A DNA stretch of 64,000 nt. Source: Luteibacter sp. GTDB taxonomy: Bacteria; Pseudomonadota; Gammaproteobacteria; Xanthomonadales; Rhodanobacteraceae. The notes beneath the pieces are model-generated. The model was not told where the DNA came from, searched no databases, and saw only the letters and a list, made by a program, of their open reading frames with translations. The position numbers were made by a program, and so were the translations under genes. Below, in pieces: positions 36,785 to 43,018 of the stretch. Each line of letters begins with the position of its first letter. Position 1 is the stretch's first letter. The DNA lies in the NCBI GenBank assembly GCA_036009745.1, contig DASYLE010000147.1, forward strand, positions 17,400 to 81,399. The letters run 5' to 3'.

Positions 36785-37198
36785 ATGGAAAGCGCGATGC
36801 AAACCCCGGTCCTGATCATCGACCCGGCGCCGCTGGTGGCCGAATCGATCGCGGCCGGCCTTTCCTCGCGCGGATTCTTTCCCGTGGTGGCGCTGACCCG
36901 TGAAGCCGCACAACGGATCGTCCGGGCCAAGGCCGTGGAGGTACTCATCGCCCACGGGCATATTCCTGGCGACGAGGCGCCCTTCCAGTTCGCCAAGGAG
37001 GCGGGCGACGCCTGCCCGGCCCTGGCCATCGTCGCGGTCACCAGCGATGCCCACACCGACCATCCCTTCGTGCCCGGCCGGGCACGTATCCTCGCCAAGC
37101 CTTTTGGCCTCGACGACCTGCTCAGCGCCATCGGCGATGCGCAGCGCATTGCCAGGGGCCGTCTGGTAGCGGACAGGAACACGACCATCAAACTCTAA
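36785..37198 (+). CDS. Atypical single-domain response-regulator receiver (no phosphoacceptor Asp)
   Basis: VLIIDP...VLIAHG...VTSD...LAKPF: receiver fold motifs with the acidic pocket and beta3 Asp altered. Confidence 0.75.
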   Translation: MESAMQTPVLIIDPAPLVAESIAAGLSSRGFFPVVALTREAAQRIVRAKAVEVLIAHGHIPGDEAPFQFAKEAGDACPALAIVAVTSDAHTDHPFVPGRARILAKPFGLDDLLSAIGDAQRIARGRLVADRNTTIKL

Positions 37199-38394: not shown

Positions 38395-39519
38395 TTAGTG
38401 CAACAGCAAAGTCACCGCGATTTCCAGCACGATAAGCAGCACGATGGTGATTTCCAGCAGCTCGGCCCGGCGGCTGGAGGCTTCATCGTAGAGCGCGGCA
38501 TACGTGTCGCGGATGATCGACAGCTTCCGGTCCACCGAGGCACTGAGCGTCGGCACGCGGAATACACTGAGTGCCGAAGTATAGACACGGGCGAGATAGA
38601 CATCCTCGGTCACCTGCAAGGCGTTGTCGACCTTCTCGGTCAGCTGGGTGACCTCGGCTACCAGCGTGTACAGGTGACGCGCGAGATGGGCGAAACGGCG
38701 TGACGCCAACAGCGACACGGCATGGCGGGCCGCCTCGACGCGCTCGTACATGCGCGGCAGCTCGTCGTCCAGGAGAGTGTCGTAGTAGCGGAACTCCACG
38801 AGCTGCGCATTGGCCACCTCGATCACGTCCGCCACATCCGAATCGCCGCGCGGCTCATAGACGAAGGCGCGATCCCAGGTCAGCACTACCAGATCATCGT
38901 CGTAATACGAAAAACTGCGCGAGAGCAGGTCGCGCCGCGAGGCCGTCGACAGCGGACGGGTTTCACCGGATAGCAGCGCCGCCAGATCGACCCGTTCGCC
39001 CAGTGCCGCCGCGTCGAGCGGCTCGTCGAGCGCATGCACTGTCCCGATCAGGTAGTCCTCCTGCAGGCGCGTATCCAGCGCGGGCCGGTCCAGCGCCGCG
39101 GCAACCACCGAACGGACCCGGCCGAGCAGTTCGGTCCAGAATTCTGCCGGGTCGTTCGGCCCGACCGCCTGGTCGAGCGCATTGAATCGCGCCGCGAAGA
39201 TGTCCCACGGGACATCGGTCACCGGCACGCGCACGGCCAGCGCCGCGACACCGAAGTCATACAAGCGCACCGATACCTCGGCGGCCACGTCCTGCGTTCC
39301 CAGGAGCAAGGTCACCGGATCGAGCGACAGCCGCAGTGGCGGCACGCCGAAGGCAACGGCCTTGGTCGGTGTGCTGGCCAGTCGGGTCCGGCTGGTCGAT
39401 CCGCCGACATGCGCCGCCCACAGCGACTCCGAACGGGTCAGGTCGATCGCGTAGGCGATGTCGAAAAGGCGCAGCGCGACGAGCTCCCCCGAGCGGATCG
39501 TGATGGCAGGGGCATTCAT
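38395..39519 (-). CDS. RMD1/DUF155-like protein with C-terminal TM helix
   Basis: LFDIAYAIDL, LYDFGV, DDLVVLTWDRAF, EVANAQLVEFRYYD, LLEITIVLLIVLEI end. Confidence 0.7.
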   Translation of the reverse strand: MNAPAITIRSGELVALRLFDIAYAIDLTRSESLWAAHVGGSTSRTRLASTPTKAVAFGVPPLRLSLDPVTLLLGTQDVAAEVSVRLYDFGVAALAVRVPVTDVPWDIFAARFNALDQAVGPNDPAEFWTELLGRVRSVVAAALDRPALDTRLQEDYLIGTVHALDEPLDAAALGERVDLAALLSGETRPLSTASRRDLLSRSFSYYDDDLVVLTWDRAFVYEPRGDSDVADVIEVANAQLVEFRYYDTLLDDELPRMYERVEAARHAVSLLASRRFAHLARHLYTLVAEVTQLTEKVDNALQVTEDVYLARVYTSALSVFRVPTLSASVDRKLSIIRDTYAALYDEASSRRAELLEITIVLLIVLEIAVTLLLH

Positions 39520-39679
39520 GGTGGACGCTCCGGTAGGAGAAAGCATGGCCAGGGGTATTGGACATGCGGGACGTTACAGCACTCCTGTCGCCCAGCCCTG
39601 CCCCAAATCAATCCGGCGGTGCTCCGCATAAAAGCGTACTGTAGCGGGCTACGTCACAAAGATCTGGCAGGTTATTCCT

Positions 39680-40075
39680 GTGGTTAGTCTGGAGAGTGAT
39701 CGGATCGTCGGGGCGCTCGGACGACGGGCGGGCGACGATCCCGGTATCGCTGGCGTCGTCCAGTCCATCGTTTCCATCTGGAACGAGATCGACACGACCC
39801 TGCGTCCCATACTGGGGCAGCGCGGCGTCGCCATGCTCTACAAGCGGAGCCTGTTCCTCACCGGTGCGGCCCATGGATGGCTACCCCGCGTGGCCGAGGT
39901 CCTGCCCGCCGCGCTGGACCTGGCGCCATTGCAAGCCGCATTGATGCAACAAGGCAACACGGTCGCCCTCGATGGCGGCAGCGCACTTCTTCGCACGTTC
40001 TACGAGCTGCTATCGAGCTTGGTCGGCCCCTCGTTGACGGAGCGACTGCTCCGTCCGATCTGGGACAACAGCTAA
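39680..40075 (+). CDS. Hypothetical helical protein, first gene of KaiC-like operon
   Basis: GTG start; L.PILGQRGVAMLYKRSL and LVGPSLTERLLRPIW motifs; 25 nt from the ATPase gene. Confidence 0.8.
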   Translation: MVSLESDRIVGALGRRAGDDPGIAGVVQSIVSIWNEIDTTLRPILGQRGVAMLYKRSLFLTGAAHGWLPRVAEVLPAALDLAPLQAALMQQGNTVALDGGSALLRTFYELLSSLVGPSLTERLLRPIWDNS

Positions 40076-40100
40076 ACCGGTTCATGCAGGACATTCCACA

Positions 40101-41585
40101 ATGAGCACCCGATCGACAATCACTCGCCTGGCTACCGGCGTGCCGGGCCTGGACGAGGTGCTGGGCGGTGGCCTGCCCGAGTTTTCATTCAATCTCATCG
40201 CCGGACCGCCAGGCTGCGGCAAGACCACGCTCGCCCACCAGATCATGTTCTCGCTGGCCAAACCGGAACGTCCGACGCTTTATTTCACGGTGCTCGGCGA
40301 ACCGCCGCTCAAGATGCTGCGCTATCAGCAGCAGTTCGCCTTCTTCGACGCCGAGCTGGTCAATGGCTCGATCCATTTCATCAACCTGACCGATGAAACG
40401 CTCGCCGGCGACCTGGACCAGGTGCTGCACCGGATCGTCCTCGAGGTCGAAAAGCACAACCCGGCGCTCATCTTCGTCGACTCGTTCCGCTCGGTTGTCC
40501 TGGCGAACAATGCCGGCGGCAACGCGCACAACAGCTTGCAGCAGTTCGTGCAGCAACTGGGCATGGTGATGACGAGCTGGCAGGCCACTACCTTCCTGAT
40601 CGGCGAATACTTCACTGAAACCGATGCCAATCCCGTTTTCACCGTGGCCGACGGCCTGATCTGGCTTCGCCAGAGCGTCCAGCGCAATTCGATGGTCCGC
40701 AAGATCGAAATCATGAAGATGCGCGGCCAGCCGACCTTGCCCGGGCTACATACCTTCCGGATCGACACCAGCGGTATCAAGGTGTTCGCGCCTGCCCGGG
40801 TGTTGGCGCCCCTCTCGTCCAGCGCGCCGAAGGGCAACCCGGGATCACGCCTGGGCACCGGCGTGCCGAAACTCGATGCCATGATGGGTGGCGGGCTGCC
40901 CCAGGGCTATTCCCTCCTGGTCGCCGGTCCTTCCGGATCGGGCAAGAGCATCCTTGCGGCGGCTTTCCTGATCGAGGGAGCCGATCGCGGGGAAACCGGT
41001 GTCATCGCGGCTTTCGAGCAGGTCCCCAGCCGGGAGCGTTCACCCCTGCTCGCGCAGCTGATCGAACAGGACAAGATTGGCCTCGTCGATACGGAGGCAC
41101 CCGACCTCTCGATCGATGAAATCGTTCTTCTGCTCATCTCCGAAATCCGCCGCCTCGGTGCCACGCGCGTGGTCATCGATTCGCTTTCGGGCTTCGAACT
41201 TGCGCTGGCGCCGACCTTCCGGCCCGACTTCAGGGAATCGTTATCACGCATGGTATCCGCGCTCGCCGCGGAGGGCGTCTCCGTGCTGATGACCTCCGAA
41301 CTGGAGGATCGTTACACCGATCTGCGCTTCAGCCCGTACGGCACGGCGTTCATGACCGACGCCATCGTCGTGCAGCGTTACATCGAGGTCCAGAGCCGGC
41401 TCCTGCGCGTCATGGCGGTGGTCAAGGTCCGTGCCAGCGCGCATTCCAATGCCTTGTGTGTTTACGAAATCGATGACAAAGGCATACAGGTCGGTGCCAC
41501 GCTGCCCGAGCAGGAAGGACTCCTCGGCGGGCGGCCAACGAGGAAGCAACTATCCCGTACATCGCACGGCCTATCCGATGACTAA
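40101..41585 (+). CDS. KaiC-like double-domain RecA-fold ATPase
   Basis: Two TG.P.LD..GGG.P / Walker A units (GPPGCGKT, GPSGSGKS), Walker B IFVDS / VVIDS, Arg fingers KMRG / KVRA. Confidence 0.95.
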   Translation: MSTRSTITRLATGVPGLDEVLGGGLPEFSFNLIAGPPGCGKTTLAHQIMFSLAKPERPTLYFTVLGEPPLKMLRYQQQFAFFDAELVNGSIHFINLTDETLAGDLDQVLHRIVLEVEKHNPALIFVDSFRSVVLANNAGGNAHNSLQQFVQQLGMVMTSWQATTFLIGEYFTETDANPVFTVADGLIWLRQSVQRNSMVRKIEIMKMRGQPTLPGLHTFRIDTSGIKVFAPARVLAPLSSSAPKGNPGSRLGTGVPKLDAMMGGGLPQGYSLLVAGPSGSGKSILAAAFLIEGADRGETGVIAAFEQVPSRERSPLLAQLIEQDKIGLVDTEAPDLSIDEIVLLLISEIRRLGATRVVIDSLSGFELALAPTFRPDFRESLSRMVSALAAEGVSVLMTSELEDRYTDLRFSPYGTAFMTDAIVVQRYIEVQSRLLRVMAVVKVRASAHSNALCVYEIDDKGIQVGATLPEQEGLLGGRPTRKQLSRTSHGLSDD

Positions 41586-41588
41586 GTC

Positions 41589-42635
41589 GTGACGAAACGC
41601 GATACGCCAGACACGCCCCCTGTCATCAGCGAAGAGGCGCGCGCCGCACTCACCACCGAAGCCGGCAGGCTGGCCGCGGGCAGCGGCTCACCGTTTGCCG
41701 CGCGCGTCGCGCAACTGGTCGCCGCGAACGAAGCACTGGTCCTCTCTTCACTGGAGATGCGCAAGGAAACCGACGCGGCCACGCAGGCACTGCACACCTT
41801 TTCCCTGTCCGCGGGGCTGGATCTCATTGCCCACGAGCGTCACTACGAACAGTTGCGCGAGGCGAATGAAAAATTGGTGCTAGCCGCGCTCAATGCACAC
41901 GAATTGCTGGCTGCCGCGGAACTTGCCCGGGTCCGCCATGCGGATTTCCTCGCCGTGCTTGCCCACGAGTTACGCACGCCATTGACCCCGATCCGCCTGG
42001 CTGCATCGATGCTCGATGACACGCGCCTGGAAGACCTGCCGAAGATGAAGGCTGTCATCGAGCGCCAGGTGCTGCATATCACTCGCTTGCTGGTGGATGT
42101 CCTGGAAGTCTCGCGCGCGGGCGTCGGCAAGTTGCGCCTGACGAAAAAGCGCCTTGATATCGCCGAAATCCTGGAACAGGCCGTCGATACCTGTGTCCCG
42201 GCCATGGATGTACGCAAACAGCGTTTTCACTCGAGCCTGTCGCCAACGCCGGTGATGATCCATGGCGATCCCGTGCGCCTCGCGCAGGTTTTCGTCAACC
42301 TGCTGGATAACGCCTCCAAGTACACGCCCCAGGGCGGCGAGATCGAACTGACCGTGGCCAATACCGGCAATGAACTGGTGATCACGGTGATCGACAGCGG
42401 CATAGGCATGACGACGGCCACGCTCGCCTCGATGTTCGAGCCCTTCGTGCAGGATCCGCAGGCAGTGGCCTTCAACGGCGATGGCCTGGGTATCGGCCTG
42501 ACCGTGGTCCGTGAACTGGTGGAGGCACATGGCGGCCAGGTGATAGCGACCAGCGCCGGCAGCGGCCATGGCAGCGAGTTCATCGTCACCCTGCCGATTG
42601 GTGACGAGTCCGCAATGGATGAAAGCGCAACGTGA
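41589..42635 (+). CDS. Cytoplasmic sensor histidine kinase
   Basis: LAHELRTPL (H-box), NLLDNASKY (N), DSGIG (G1), GLGIGL (G2); no TM segment. Confidence 0.95.
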   Translation: MTKRDTPDTPPVISEEARAALTTEAGRLAAGSGSPFAARVAQLVAANEALVLSSLEMRKETDAATQALHTFSLSAGLDLIAHERHYEQLREANEKLVLAALNAHELLAAAELARVRHADFLAVLAHELRTPLTPIRLAASMLDDTRLEDLPKMKAVIERQVLHITRLLVDVLEVSRAGVGKLRLTKKRLDIAEILEQAVDTCVPAMDVRKQRFHSSLSPTPVMIHGDPVRLAQVFVNLLDNASKYTPQGGEIELTVANTGNELVITVIDSGIGMTTATLASMFEPFVQDPQAVAFNGDGLGIGLTVVRELVEAHGGQVIATSAGSGHGSEFIVTLPIGDESAMDESAT

Positions 42636-42763: not shown

Positions 42764-43018
42764 GTGCTCCCCAGCGGGAAAACCCGTTACATGGTCTTGC
42801 TCGACATTCCATTCCAACCCGACGCATCCGCCTGCTGGCGGATATCCGTGCCCGGTGAAGGCGTGCGGGTCTTCGCCGAAAGGCATGCGGCGTTGCGGTT
42901 CGCCATGGACCTGGCAAAAAAGCAGGACGAAACCGTGGGCCATGTGACCTACATCAGCCTGGAAGGCGCCGATGGCCGCTGGCGGCTTTTCGATGCCAAC
43001 TTTCGCACCGTCGATTGA
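42764..43018 (+). CDS. Small hypothetical protein (paralogue of 60086-60313)
   Basis: F..R.AA.RFAM..A...IS.EGADG.WR.FD motif shared with the second copy; start uncertain (42764 or ATG 42791). Confidence 0.7.
   Translation: MLPSGKTRYMVLLDIPFQPDASACWRISVPGEGVRVFAERHAALRFAMDLAKKQDETVGHVTYISLEGADGRWRLFDANFRTVD

What the first reader, a model, noticed from the sequence alone, without database searches (positions are those of the whole stretch)
39680..42635. Three-gene orf-KaiC-like ATPase-histidine kinase operon without KaiA/KaiB
Seen: tightly packed genes (25-nt and 3-nt gaps): a 131-aa helical protein, a double-domain KaiC-like ATPase, and a sensor-less cytoplasmic kinase. Both Walker A motifs and Arg fingers are intact. 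The cyanobacterial S431/T432 phosphosite region (ISTITD) reads TAFMTD, and the catalytic EE pairs read GE and EQ. Established: KaiC signals to the kinase SasA in cyanobacteria; most KaiC homologues outside cyanobacteria have poorly known roles. Inference: a non-circadian ATPase-based signalling switch in which the small protein is the input or adaptor and the kinase is the output. No intact cognate response regulator is adjacent.
Basis: partly seen in the sequence, partly recalled or inferred. Interest (0 to 1): 0.7.

Follow-up and report, generated by a model that had tools for sequence, protein, structure and literature searches.

The report
KaiC-like ATPase, small partner, kinase operon
This is a real three-gene signalling operon in which a non-clock relative of the cyanobacterial clock protein KaiC always travels with a small helical protein of no described family and with a sensor-less output enzyme. 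This copy is a trimmed version of a module widespread in Proteobacteria.

Summary
The three ORFs, the 25-nt and 3-nt gaps, both Walker A motifs, the GE and EQ pairs and TAFMTD are all as described.

- **KaiC type.** It is the "group II" or "AF-type" KaiC-like ATPase already noted in Pseudomonas and Xanthomonadales (Terrettaz et al., bioRxiv 2022; De Luca et al. 2011). Those papers link it only to a histidine kinase.
- **Small protein.** The 131-aa protein belongs to a large family without a Pfam model (2,917 clusters). It sits directly before group II KaiC in 57 of 58 loci and in 16 of 16 KaiC-II genomes of the order. Its stop usually overlaps the kaiC start by 4 nt. The model is confident, with six helices and no fold match.
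- **Kinase.** The usual output is coiled-coil–GGDEF–helix–HisKA–HATPase. Here the GGDEF block has been lost, which explains the "duplicated" QLxxANExLVL helix.
- **Genome.** A separate kaiB-kaiC operon lies on another contig, so "without KaiB" holds for the locus only. Most genomes carrying the module have no KaiB.

How the module works remains inference. The scan has met this module before on other genomes. I class it as a new variant of a known kind, of moderate interest.

The parts
39680..40075 (+). Small partner protein (131 aa). Six-helix, cytosolic, from an undescribed family with conserved motifs LxPIxGxRGVAxLYxRSL and FYELLxSLVGPSLTERLLRxxW.
   Evidence: ORF. 302 homologues in the word-indexed search and 2,917 50%-identity clusters. 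No Pfam or NCBIfam match. AlphaFold2 pLDDT 89.2, pTM 0.85. No PDB fold match below E=1. Always adjacent to group II KaiC.
40072..40104 (+). Relic of the ancestral C-terminal tail of the small protein (LNRFMQDIPQ*), now in another frame. It ends in the ATGA overlap with the kaiC start and contains the likely kaiC Shine-Dalgarno AGGA (40088-40091).
   Evidence: Sequence. Comparison with L014-L019 and with untruncated relatives. The 4-nt overlap is present in 42 of 52 loci.
40101..41585 (+). Group II ('AF-type') KaiC-like double-domain ATPase, 494 aa. Walker A at 40203-40226 and 40926-40949. G66-E67 (40296-40301) replaces E77-E78. E306-Q307 (41016-41021) replaces E318-E319. TAFMTD (41343-41360) replaces ISTITD. 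The CI loop at the KaiB/SasA docking site is shortened.
   Evidence: Pfam. Alignment to solved KaiC structures. Family-wide conservation of these residues. Alignment with the genome's other KaiC.
41589..42635 (+). Soluble histidine kinase, 348 aa. All-helical N-terminus with signalling helix 1 (aa 42-55, 41712-41753) and signalling helix 2 (aa 88-101, 41850-41891). H-box His126 (41964-41966). HisKA aa 118-177, HATPase_c aa 226-337. It is a derivative of a coiled-coil-GGDEF-helix-HisKA-HATPase protein that has lost the GGDEF block.
   Evidence: Pfam. Catalytic boxes. Alignment with long forms. GGDEF present in 33 of 49 evaluable loci. Motif specificity. Secondary structure of a low-confidence model: helix 79-141 carries motif 2 and His126.
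39547..39679 (.). 133-nt divergent intergenic region, the presumed promoter region of the operon. No consensus sigma-70 site was found.
   Evidence: ORF map, sequence and consensus scan with 0 promoter-like sites. Assigning it as the promoter region is inference.

Best explanation
The locus is one copy of a conserved, horizontally mobile three-gene signalling module of Gamma- and Betaproteobacteria.

Shown:
1. A roughly 130-145-aa six-helix protein of an undescribed family is encoded immediately before a 'group II' KaiC-like ATPase. It is normally translationally coupled to it by an ATGA overlap.
2. This ATPase keeps both P-loops and both arginine fingers. It has only one Glu of each catalytic pair, and Ala-Phe in place of the clock phosphosites.
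3. An output enzyme follows whose catalytic domains are each preceded by a module-specific helix (QLxEANExLVL). The commonest form is coiled-coil-GGDEF-helix-HisKA-HATPase.
4. In this genome and its close relatives the GGDEF block and the small protein's C-terminal tail have been lost, leaving a plain soluble kinase.

Inferred mechanism:
1. The KaiC-like protein forms a hexamer. Its nucleotide state (ATP bound, hydrolysed or exchanged) acts as the switch, because autophosphorylation at the clock sites is impossible.
2. The small protein is an obligate stoichiometric partner that sets or reads that state, as a regulator or an adaptor.
3. The complex acts on the N-terminal helices of the dimeric output enzyme. 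It shifts the helix that runs into the phospho-accepting His126 and so turns kinase activity up or down. In the long form it would do the same to c-di-GMP synthesis.
4. The kinase then signals to a response regulator encoded elsewhere.

The module does not need KaiA, KaiB or another KaiC.
For: - Identity of the parts.
- Co-conservation: 57 of 58 loci found through the small protein have a KaiC of 67-91% identity directly downstream. In a 401-genome sample of the order, all 16 genomes with this KaiC have the small gene adjacent. Only one further, fragmentary genome has the small gene alone.
- Coupling: a 4-nt overlap in 42 of 52 loci.
- Family-wide signature: VLGEPP, FEQ, and Ala-Phe at the S431/T432 positions in all 54 orthologues compared (RFSPYG[T/A]AF[M/L]TDAI).
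- Output gene: of 49 evaluable loci, 29 have GGDEF plus kinase, 14 kinase only, 2 GGDEF plus a partial kinase, 2 GGDEF only and 2 neither. The GGDEF motif is intact in the loci that carry the domain. By eye, an RxxD site lies upstream of it in L024 (REEDTVCRYGGDEF).
- The window kinase aligns to the long form minus about 190 residues.
- The helix motif occurs only in this gene: twice in the whole 4.8-Mb genome, and 56 times in 674 kb of loci, always in the gene after kaiC.
- Autonomy: 11 of 16 module genomes lack KaiB. Two complete or near-complete genomes have this KaiC as their only KaiC. No KaiA was found.
- Precedent for KaiC-like proteins binding the neighbouring kinase: bacterial two-hybrid and co-immunoprecipitation for Pseudomonas groups I and III.
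- No other gene is conserved in the neighbourhood.
Against: - No experiment or structure shows that any two of the three proteins touch.
- Natural fusions that would support contact are rare and look like sequencing indels.
- Loss of the first Glu in CI may mean that domain does not hydrolyse ATP at all.
- No response regulator is linked, so the kinase's target is unknown.
- The kinase model is of low confidence (pLDDT 66.5).
- One locus (L061) has the small gene followed directly by the GGDEF gene with no KaiC, and two loci lack the kinase/cyclase gene. The parts can therefore be separated.
Confidence: 0.6

Rival explanations
1. The KaiC-like protein is a catalytically silent scaffold that only binds nucleotide. 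The small helical protein is the real sensor: a ligand-binding domain, possibly related to the FCD domain of GntR regulators. It passes a small-molecule signal through the scaffold to the kinase.
For: CI has lost the Glu equivalent to E77, and CII has E-Q instead of E-E. 23 of 98 small-protein homologues give weak partial FCD (PF07729) matches, best E=5.4e-4. One source annotated a homologue as GntR-family.
Against: The FCD matches are below Pfam's threshold (14-16 bits against 24.3), cover only about 50 residues, and are absent for the window protein. Foldseek found no FCD or any other fold at E<1. Both Walker A motifs, both arginine fingers and one Glu per domain are kept across the family, which argues for retained nucleotide turnover.
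Confidence: 0.15
2. In this genome the module is a decaying remnant. It has lost the cyclase domain, the small protein's tail and the translational coupling, and may no longer signal.
For: GGDEF block absent. A frameshift truncates the tail and leaves a 25-nt gap. The module is patchy in the genus, found in 3 of 24 congeners.
Against: The same reduced form is kept in at least six species or MAGs, with 74-87% (small protein), 88-91% (KaiC) and 73-84% (kinase) identity and open frames. All kinase catalytic boxes are intact. Short kinases without GGDEF occur in 14 of 49 loci, in several separate lineages. The whole helical core of the small protein is retained.
Confidence: 0.1
3. It is part of a KaiB-dependent hourglass or clock. 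The KaiB encoded on contig C52 also serves this KaiC, or the two KaiC proteins form mixed hexamers.
For: The genome has kaiB-kaiC on C52. KaiB is enriched among module-bearing genomes (5 of 16 against 7 of 385). Terrettaz et al. note that group II usually co-occurs with another KaiC in Pseudomonas and that KaiC homologues cross-interact.
Against: 11 of 16 module genomes have no KaiB, and two have no other KaiC. There are no phosphorylatable residues at the clock sites. The CI loop where KaiB and SasA dock is about 7 residues shorter than in the genome's KaiB-linked KaiC.
Confidence: 0.05
4. It is an anti-phage defence system built on a KaiC/RecA-like ATPase.
For: Patchy, horizontally moved distribution. 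Weak P-loop-level hits of the ATPase to PADLOC models (mad8 E=3.4e-11 over 58 residues).
Against: The PADLOC hits cover only the Walker A region, and the small protein has none. The outputs are standard signalling enzymes (GGDEF, HisKA). The flanks are not defence genes and vary between genomes. Base composition matches the surroundings.
Confidence: 0.03

Closest known systems
Group II KaiC-like proteins of Pseudomonas and Xanthomonadales (Terrettaz, Cabete, Geiser, Valentini, Gonzalez; bioRxiv 10.1101/2022.01.26.477890)
   Same: No phosphorylatable residues at the S431/T432 positions, with threonines nearby (T415, T419). The paper gives Xanthomonadales as the closest relatives outside Pseudomonas, and here the Pseudomonas loci are 75-78% identical. 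Associated with a histidine kinase and no adjacent response regulator.
   Different: The paper reports only the kinase association and did no experiments on group II. It does not mention the upstream small protein or a GGDEF domain. Here the small protein is a constant partner, the kinase is usually fused to a cyclase, and group II can be the only KaiC in a genome.
Third ('black') KaiC family with poorly conserved phosphosites, including the 'AF' type, in De Luca et al. 2011 (PMC3164672; Ramlibacter tataouinensis Rta_35460)
   Same: KaiC homologues unable to phosphorylate two residues, lying near signalling proteins (kinase, GGDEF/EAL). Ramlibacter and Caenimonas loci are among those recovered here (L065, L067).
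   Different: That paper treats the family as heterogeneous and defines no partner. Here the AF type forms one tight, highly conserved module.
Cyanobacterial KaiC with its output kinase SasA
   Same: A double-domain KaiC-family hexameric ATPase paired with a soluble HisKA/HATPase kinase that has no ligand-binding sensor domain.
   Different: No KaiA. KaiB is not needed. The phosphosites and one Glu of each pair are missing, and the docking loop in CI is shortened. The kinase has helices instead of SasA's KaiB-like thioredoxin-fold domain. An extra helical partner is present, and the gene order is fixed in one operon.
Pseudomonas putida and P. protegens KaiC-like / kinase / single-domain response regulator modules (groups III and I)
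   Same: A KaiC-like protein binds the neighbouring kinase. Roles in stress resistance, and phosphorylation that is not circadian.
   Different: Those KaiC proteins are phosphorylated at the clock-equivalent sites, use PAS-domain kinases and have adjacent receivers. They have no small helical partner.

Membership tests
Circadian KaiC (KaiABC oscillator core) | Two tandem KaiC/RecA-like domains, each with a Walker A motif | tested here: met
   PF06745 twice, E=3.7e-66. GPPGCGKT and GPSGSGKS.
Circadian KaiC (KaiABC oscillator core) | Catalytic Glu pairs E77/E78 and E318/E319 | tested here: not met
   They read G-E and E-Q in alignments to solved KaiC structures. The same holds in nearly all of the 54-55 orthologues compared, with one FEP exception in CII.
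Circadian KaiC (KaiABC oscillator core) | Phosphorylatable S431/T432 | tested here: not met
   Ala416/Phe417, invariant in the family.
Circadian KaiC (KaiABC oscillator core) | KaiB (and KaiA) partners | tested here: not met
   None at the locus. KaiB elsewhere in the genome sits beside a different KaiC. 11 of 16 module genomes lack KaiB. No KaiA in the genome.
Group II KaiC-like (Terrettaz et al.) | No phosphorylatable residue at the S431/T432 positions, with threonines nearby | tested here: met
   T-A-F-M-T-D. T419 is invariant; T415 is Thr in 49 of 54 orthologues.
Group II KaiC-like (Terrettaz et al.) | Close relationship between Pseudomonas and Xanthomonadales members | tested here: met
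   75-78% identity to the KaiC of Pseudomonas loci L021, L026, L028-L030, L034, L039, L053 and L069. No tree was built with the paper's own sequences.
Group II KaiC-like (Terrettaz et al.) | Followed by a histidine kinase, with no adjacent response regulator | tested here: met
   Kinase 3 nt downstream. Kinase core present in 45 of 49 evaluable loci. No conserved receiver gene.
SasA-type KaiC-binding kinase | N-terminal KaiB-like (thioredoxin-fold) domain | tested here: not met
   No Pfam domain before HisKA. The N-terminal 141 residues are predicted all-helical in a low-confidence model. They align to the coiled-coil and helix regions of GGDEF-kinase fusions.
SasA-type KaiC-binding kinase | HisKA plus HATPase_c core with a phospho-accepting His | tested here: met
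   H126, N, G1, F and G2 boxes.
KaiA or KaiB (for the small protein) | KaiB thioredoxin-like alpha/beta fold, or KaiA C-terminal helical-bundle fold or sequence | tested here: not met
   No Pfam or NCBIfam match. The model is all-helical, so it is not KaiB-like. No KaiA or other structure among the Foldseek PDB matches (best E=1.6). A profile search of PDB sequences found nothing below E=0.87.
FCD ligand-binding domain (PF07729) (for the small protein) | Match over the family threshold, and an FCD-like fold | tested here: not met
   The window protein has no match. 23 of 98 relatives give partial matches; the two inspected individually scored 14-16 bits against a 24.3-bit cut-off. No FCD structure was retrieved by Foldseek.
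Diguanylate cyclase-histidine kinase fusion (majority output of the module) | GGDEF domain between the two signalling helices | tested here: not met
   Absent from the window protein: a gap of about 190 alignment columns. Present with an intact GGDEF motif in 33 of 49 evaluable related loci.

The most novel reading that the evidence does not exclude
The small six-helix protein is a new class of KaiC regulator, a functional counterpart of KaiA or KaiB with an unrelated fold. It controls nucleotide exchange or hydrolysis in a KaiC that cannot be phosphorylated. The complex would then work as an energy-state or slow-ATPase timer that drives both c-di-GMP synthesis and a phosphorelay through a module-specific signalling helix.
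Probability: 0.3. Interest if true: 0.75.

Novelty: new variant of a known kind. Interest (0 to 1): 0.55.

Why it matters
Most KaiC homologues outside cyanobacteria have no known partners or mechanism. This subgroup offers a compact and very strongly conserved three-part system: the KaiC-like protein is about 77% identical on average across two proteobacterial classes. It has a defined obligate partner and defined enzymatic read-outs (kinase autophosphorylation and, in most relatives, c-di-GMP synthesis). That makes it possible to test directly what a KaiC does when it cannot phosphorylate itself. The small protein family has thousands of sequence clusters, no Pfam model and no structural relative, so it is a candidate for a new domain family. 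For this genome the practical result is an annotation: a reduced group II KaiC module, separate from the kaiBC operon elsewhere in the genome.

Tried and rejected
- **Defence system:** PADLOC gave only P-loop-level hits. Rejected.
- **KaiA- or KaiB-like small protein:** no sequence or fold match. Rejected.
- **FCD-like small protein:** sub-threshold, partial matches, absent for the window protein. Kept only as a weak lead.
- **Natural fusions as evidence of contact:** L047 encodes an in-frame small-KaiC fusion. A length-aware search for others found one protein, P0272. Its C-terminal part is out-of-frame KaiC sequence, so these fusions are probably indel errors at the 4-nt overlap. Not used as evidence.
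- **Conserved neighbours or a cognate response regulator:** clustering of ORFs in 58 loci found nothing beyond the triad, apart from a Crp-like gene in 7 loci.
- **Empty-site comparison:** attempted through the upstream 383-aa gene in congeners. The flanks were not comparable within the fetched stretches.
- **Promoter and terminator scan:** no promoter-like site, and terminator-like sites at background level.
- **Kinase structure:** the model built on a 6-row alignment has low confidence. Only its secondary structure was used.
- **Base composition:** gives no sign of a foreign island.
Full report
**1. Observation**

The ORF list gives three co-oriented genes: 39680-40075 (131 aa, GTG), 40101-41585 (494 aa) and 41589-42635 (348 aa, GTG). 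They are separated by 25 and 3 nt.

- Pfam finds two KaiC domains in the middle protein and HisKA plus HATPase_c in the last one. It finds nothing in the first, and NCBIfam agrees.
- Alignments to solved KaiC structures place G66-E67 opposite E77-E78, E306-Q307 opposite E318-E319, and A416-F417 opposite S431-T432.
- Both Walker A motifs and both arginine-finger positions are kept.
- None of the three proteins has a hydrophobic segment long enough to span a membrane. The kinase has all catalytic boxes (H126, N, G1, F, G2).

**2. The genome has another Kai system**

A search of the whole assembly (96% complete) finds a second double-domain KaiC on contig C52. This one has FEE in both halves, Ser-Ser at the phosphosite and a long C-terminal coiled coil. 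It is followed by a KaiB gene. No KaiA is found. "Without KaiA/KaiB" is therefore true of the locus but not of the genome.

**3. Which KaiC it is**

Terrettaz et al. (bioRxiv 10.1101/2022.01.26.477890) divide Pseudomonas KaiC homologues into three groups. Their group II has these properties:
- no phosphorylatable residues at the clock positions, with threonines nearby;
- closest relatives in Xanthomonadales;

It was not studied experimentally. De Luca et al. 2011 (PMC3164672) had already listed "AF"-type KaiCs in a heterogeneous third family near signalling genes. The window protein fits group II. It is 75-78% identical to KaiCs in Pseudomonas loci and carries TAFMTD.

Across the 54-55 orthologues compared, VLGEPP (CI), FEQ (CII) and RFSPYG[T/A]AF[M/L]TDAI are almost invariant. 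These are signatures of the family, not decay. Compared with the genome's KaiB-linked KaiC and with cyanobacterial KaiC, the CI loop where KaiB and SasA dock is about 6-7 residues shorter. The role of that loop is from my own knowledge of the Kai literature.

**4. The small protein**

- **Family size.** It has 302 homologues in the word-indexed database. It matches 2,917 clusters at 50% identity (1,591 at E<=1e-10) in the exhaustive search. It has no Pfam, NCBIfam or PADLOC match.
- **Adjacency to KaiC.** A scan of one genome per species returned 58 loci in Luteibacter, Pinirhizobacter, Pseudomonas, Lysobacteraceae, Burkholderiales, Rhodocyclales and Marinobacterium. In 57 of these a KaiC of 67-91% identity follows directly.
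- **Reverse test.** In a 401-genome sample of the order, 16 genomes have this KaiC and all 16 have the small gene adjacent. One more, fragmentary genome has the small gene only.
- **Translational coupling.** In 42 of 52 loci the small gene's stop overlaps the kaiC ATG by 4 nt.
- **Structure.** The AlphaFold2 model is confident (pLDDT 89.2, pTM 0.85) and has six helices. Foldseek finds nothing in the PDB below E=1.6, and a profile search of PDB sequences finds nothing below E=0.87. It is therefore neither KaiA-like nor KaiB-like.
- **FCD lead.** Weak, partial FCD-domain matches in 23 of 98 relatives are below threshold.

In the window clade a frameshift after ...WDNS truncates the usual tail of about 11 residues. 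The old tail and the ATGA overlap can still be read in another frame at 40072-40104. In two relatives (L017, L019) that relic has acquired stops, so it is not translated. The "25-nt gap" is this relic. It includes AGGA nine nucleotides before the kaiC start.

**5. The kinase**

In most related loci the gene after kaiC encodes a protein of about 540 aa with this layout: N-terminal coiled coil, GGDEF, linker helix, HisKA, HATPase_c. Of 49 loci with enough sequence downstream:

| Output gene | Loci |
|---|---|
| GGDEF plus full kinase | 29 |
| Kinase only | 14 |
| GGDEF plus partial kinase | 2 |
| GGDEF only | 2 |
| Neither | 2 |

- The GGDEF motif is intact in the loci that carry the domain. By eye, an RxxD site lies just upstream of it in the L024 protein.
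- The window kinase aligns to the long form with a single gap of about 190 columns covering the GGDEF block.
They do not replace a sensor domain. They are what is left after the cyclase was lost.
- A strict version of the motif occurs only twice in all six frames of the 4.8-Mb genome, both times in this gene. It occurs 56 times in 674 kb of related loci, always in the gene after kaiC. About 0.4 chance hits would be expected in the genome, so the genome count alone is weak. The loci count is the stronger evidence.
- A low-confidence model (pLDDT 66.5) predicts residues 12-141 as three helices. The last one (79-141) carries motif 2 and runs into His126.

**6. Autonomy and mobility**

- KaiB is present in 5 of the 16 module-bearing genomes of the order sample, against 7 of the other 385. 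It is enriched but not required.
- Two high-quality genomes have this KaiC as their only KaiC.
- Only 3 of 24 congeners carry the small gene. One of them carries a divergent version (small protein 48%, KaiC 70% identical).
- The flanking genes differ between genomes, and nothing but the triad is conserved.
- Base composition matches the surroundings.

The module behaves as a self-contained unit that is exchanged horizontally.

**7. How it probably works**

Shown:
- the three genes form a unit under strong selection, with mean identities of 77% (KaiC), 52% (small protein) and 54% (kinase);
- the ATPase keeps its nucleotide-binding elements but not the clock phosphosites;
- the output enzyme has module-specific helices in front of each catalytic domain.

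Established elsewhere: KaiC-like proteins of Pseudomonas groups I and III bind their neighbouring kinases.

Inferred:
1. The KaiC-like hexamer switches by nucleotide state rather than by phosphorylation.
2. The small protein is a stoichiometric regulator or adaptor of that state.
3. The complex acts on the N-terminal helices of the dimeric output enzyme and alters the helix leading to His126.
4. The kinase signals to an unlinked response regulator.

I put about 0.9 on the identification of the module and about 0.4-0.5 on this mechanism. That gives 0.6 for the statement as a whole.

**8. Rivals**

- **Silent scaffold with the small protein as ligand sensor (0.15).** It rests on the lost Glu residues and weak FCD hits. 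The retained Walker A motifs, arginine fingers and one Glu per domain argue against it.
- **Decaying remnant in this genome (0.1).** The same reduced form is kept across at least six species or MAGs, and short kinases occur in several separate lineages.
- **KaiB-dependent timer (0.05).** The module occurs mostly without KaiB.
- **Phage defence (0.03).** There is no supporting model hit or context.

**9. What led nowhere**

- Natural small-KaiC fusions (L047; P0272) look like indel artefacts.
- The empty-site comparison was uninformative.
- Consensus promoter and terminator scans were at background.

**10. Earlier notes of this scan**

Searches of the scan's own notes show that the same module was found before on other genomes: e1-4073885, e1-3951095, e1-4385008, e1-4223539, e1-5226167 and e1-3967078. 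Their conclusions were the same (undescribed helical partner, GGDEF-kinase output, module-specific helix). I reached my results from this window's own data before reading them. I took from them the lead to De Luca et al. and the idea of testing motif specificity, and I checked both.

**11. Verdict**

This is a real, ordinary-looking but mechanistically unexplored signalling operon. The KaiC-kinase pairing is known. The obligate small partner, the ancestral cyclase-kinase output and its reduction in this lineage are not described in the papers I could search. I class it as a new variant of a known kind, with interest 0.55.

Noticed in passing
own genome contig C52 (locus L001:80-2165, minus strand): Second Kai system: a 582-aa KaiC with FEE in both halves, Ser-Ser at the phosphosite and a long C-terminal coiled-coil extension. 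It is followed by a KaiB gene (PF07689, E=8.7e-24). It resembles the KaiBC hourglass type of purple bacteria.
   Followed up: partly
window 36785-37198 (+): 137-aa receiver-like protein below the Pfam threshold (21.1 against 30.2 bits). By eye it lacks the phospho-acceptor Asp (LIAHGH at that position), so it is a pseudo-receiver. It is conserved only in the closest relative (L014) and is not part of the module.
   Followed up: partly
window 38395-39546 (-): 383-aa protein with no Pfam, NCBIfam or PADLOC match and a single C-terminal hydrophobic helix (LEITIVLLIVLEIAVTLLL). Homologues occur in 22 of 37 congeners, not linked to the KaiC module.
   Followed up: partly
window 42764-43018 (+): 84-aa ORF just after the kinase with no family match. 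It is conserved (88% identity) only in the closest relative (L014), so it is probably a lineage-specific small gene.
   Followed up: no
L061:527-1653: In one Rhizobacter MAG the small gene is followed directly by the coiled-coil-GGDEF gene, with no KaiC between them. This is either a natural KaiC deletion or an assembly artefact.
   Followed up: no
L047:6986-8926: In-frame 646-aa fusion of the small protein and KaiC in a Lysobacteraceae MAG. The only other fusion found (P0272) contains out-of-frame KaiC sequence, so both are probably indels at the 4-nt overlap.
   Followed up: yes
L029:5331-6650 (-): In Pseudomonas arsenicoxydans a second KaiC paralogue (29% identical) lies divergently, immediately upstream of the small gene. 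This fits the reported co-occurrence of group II with another KaiC group.
   Followed up: no
L028:10671-13271, L062:9325-11916, L033 and L039 downstream: PAS-GGDEF-EAL proteins lie next to the module in several loci. In L062 one takes the place of the kinase gene, a further link of the module to c-di-GMP turnover. A Crp-like regulator gene recurs in 7 loci.
   Followed up: partly
G015:C1:2359197-2360996 (L013): A congener carries a divergent version of the module (small protein 48%, KaiC 70% identical). This points to independent acquisitions within one genus.
   Followed up: partly
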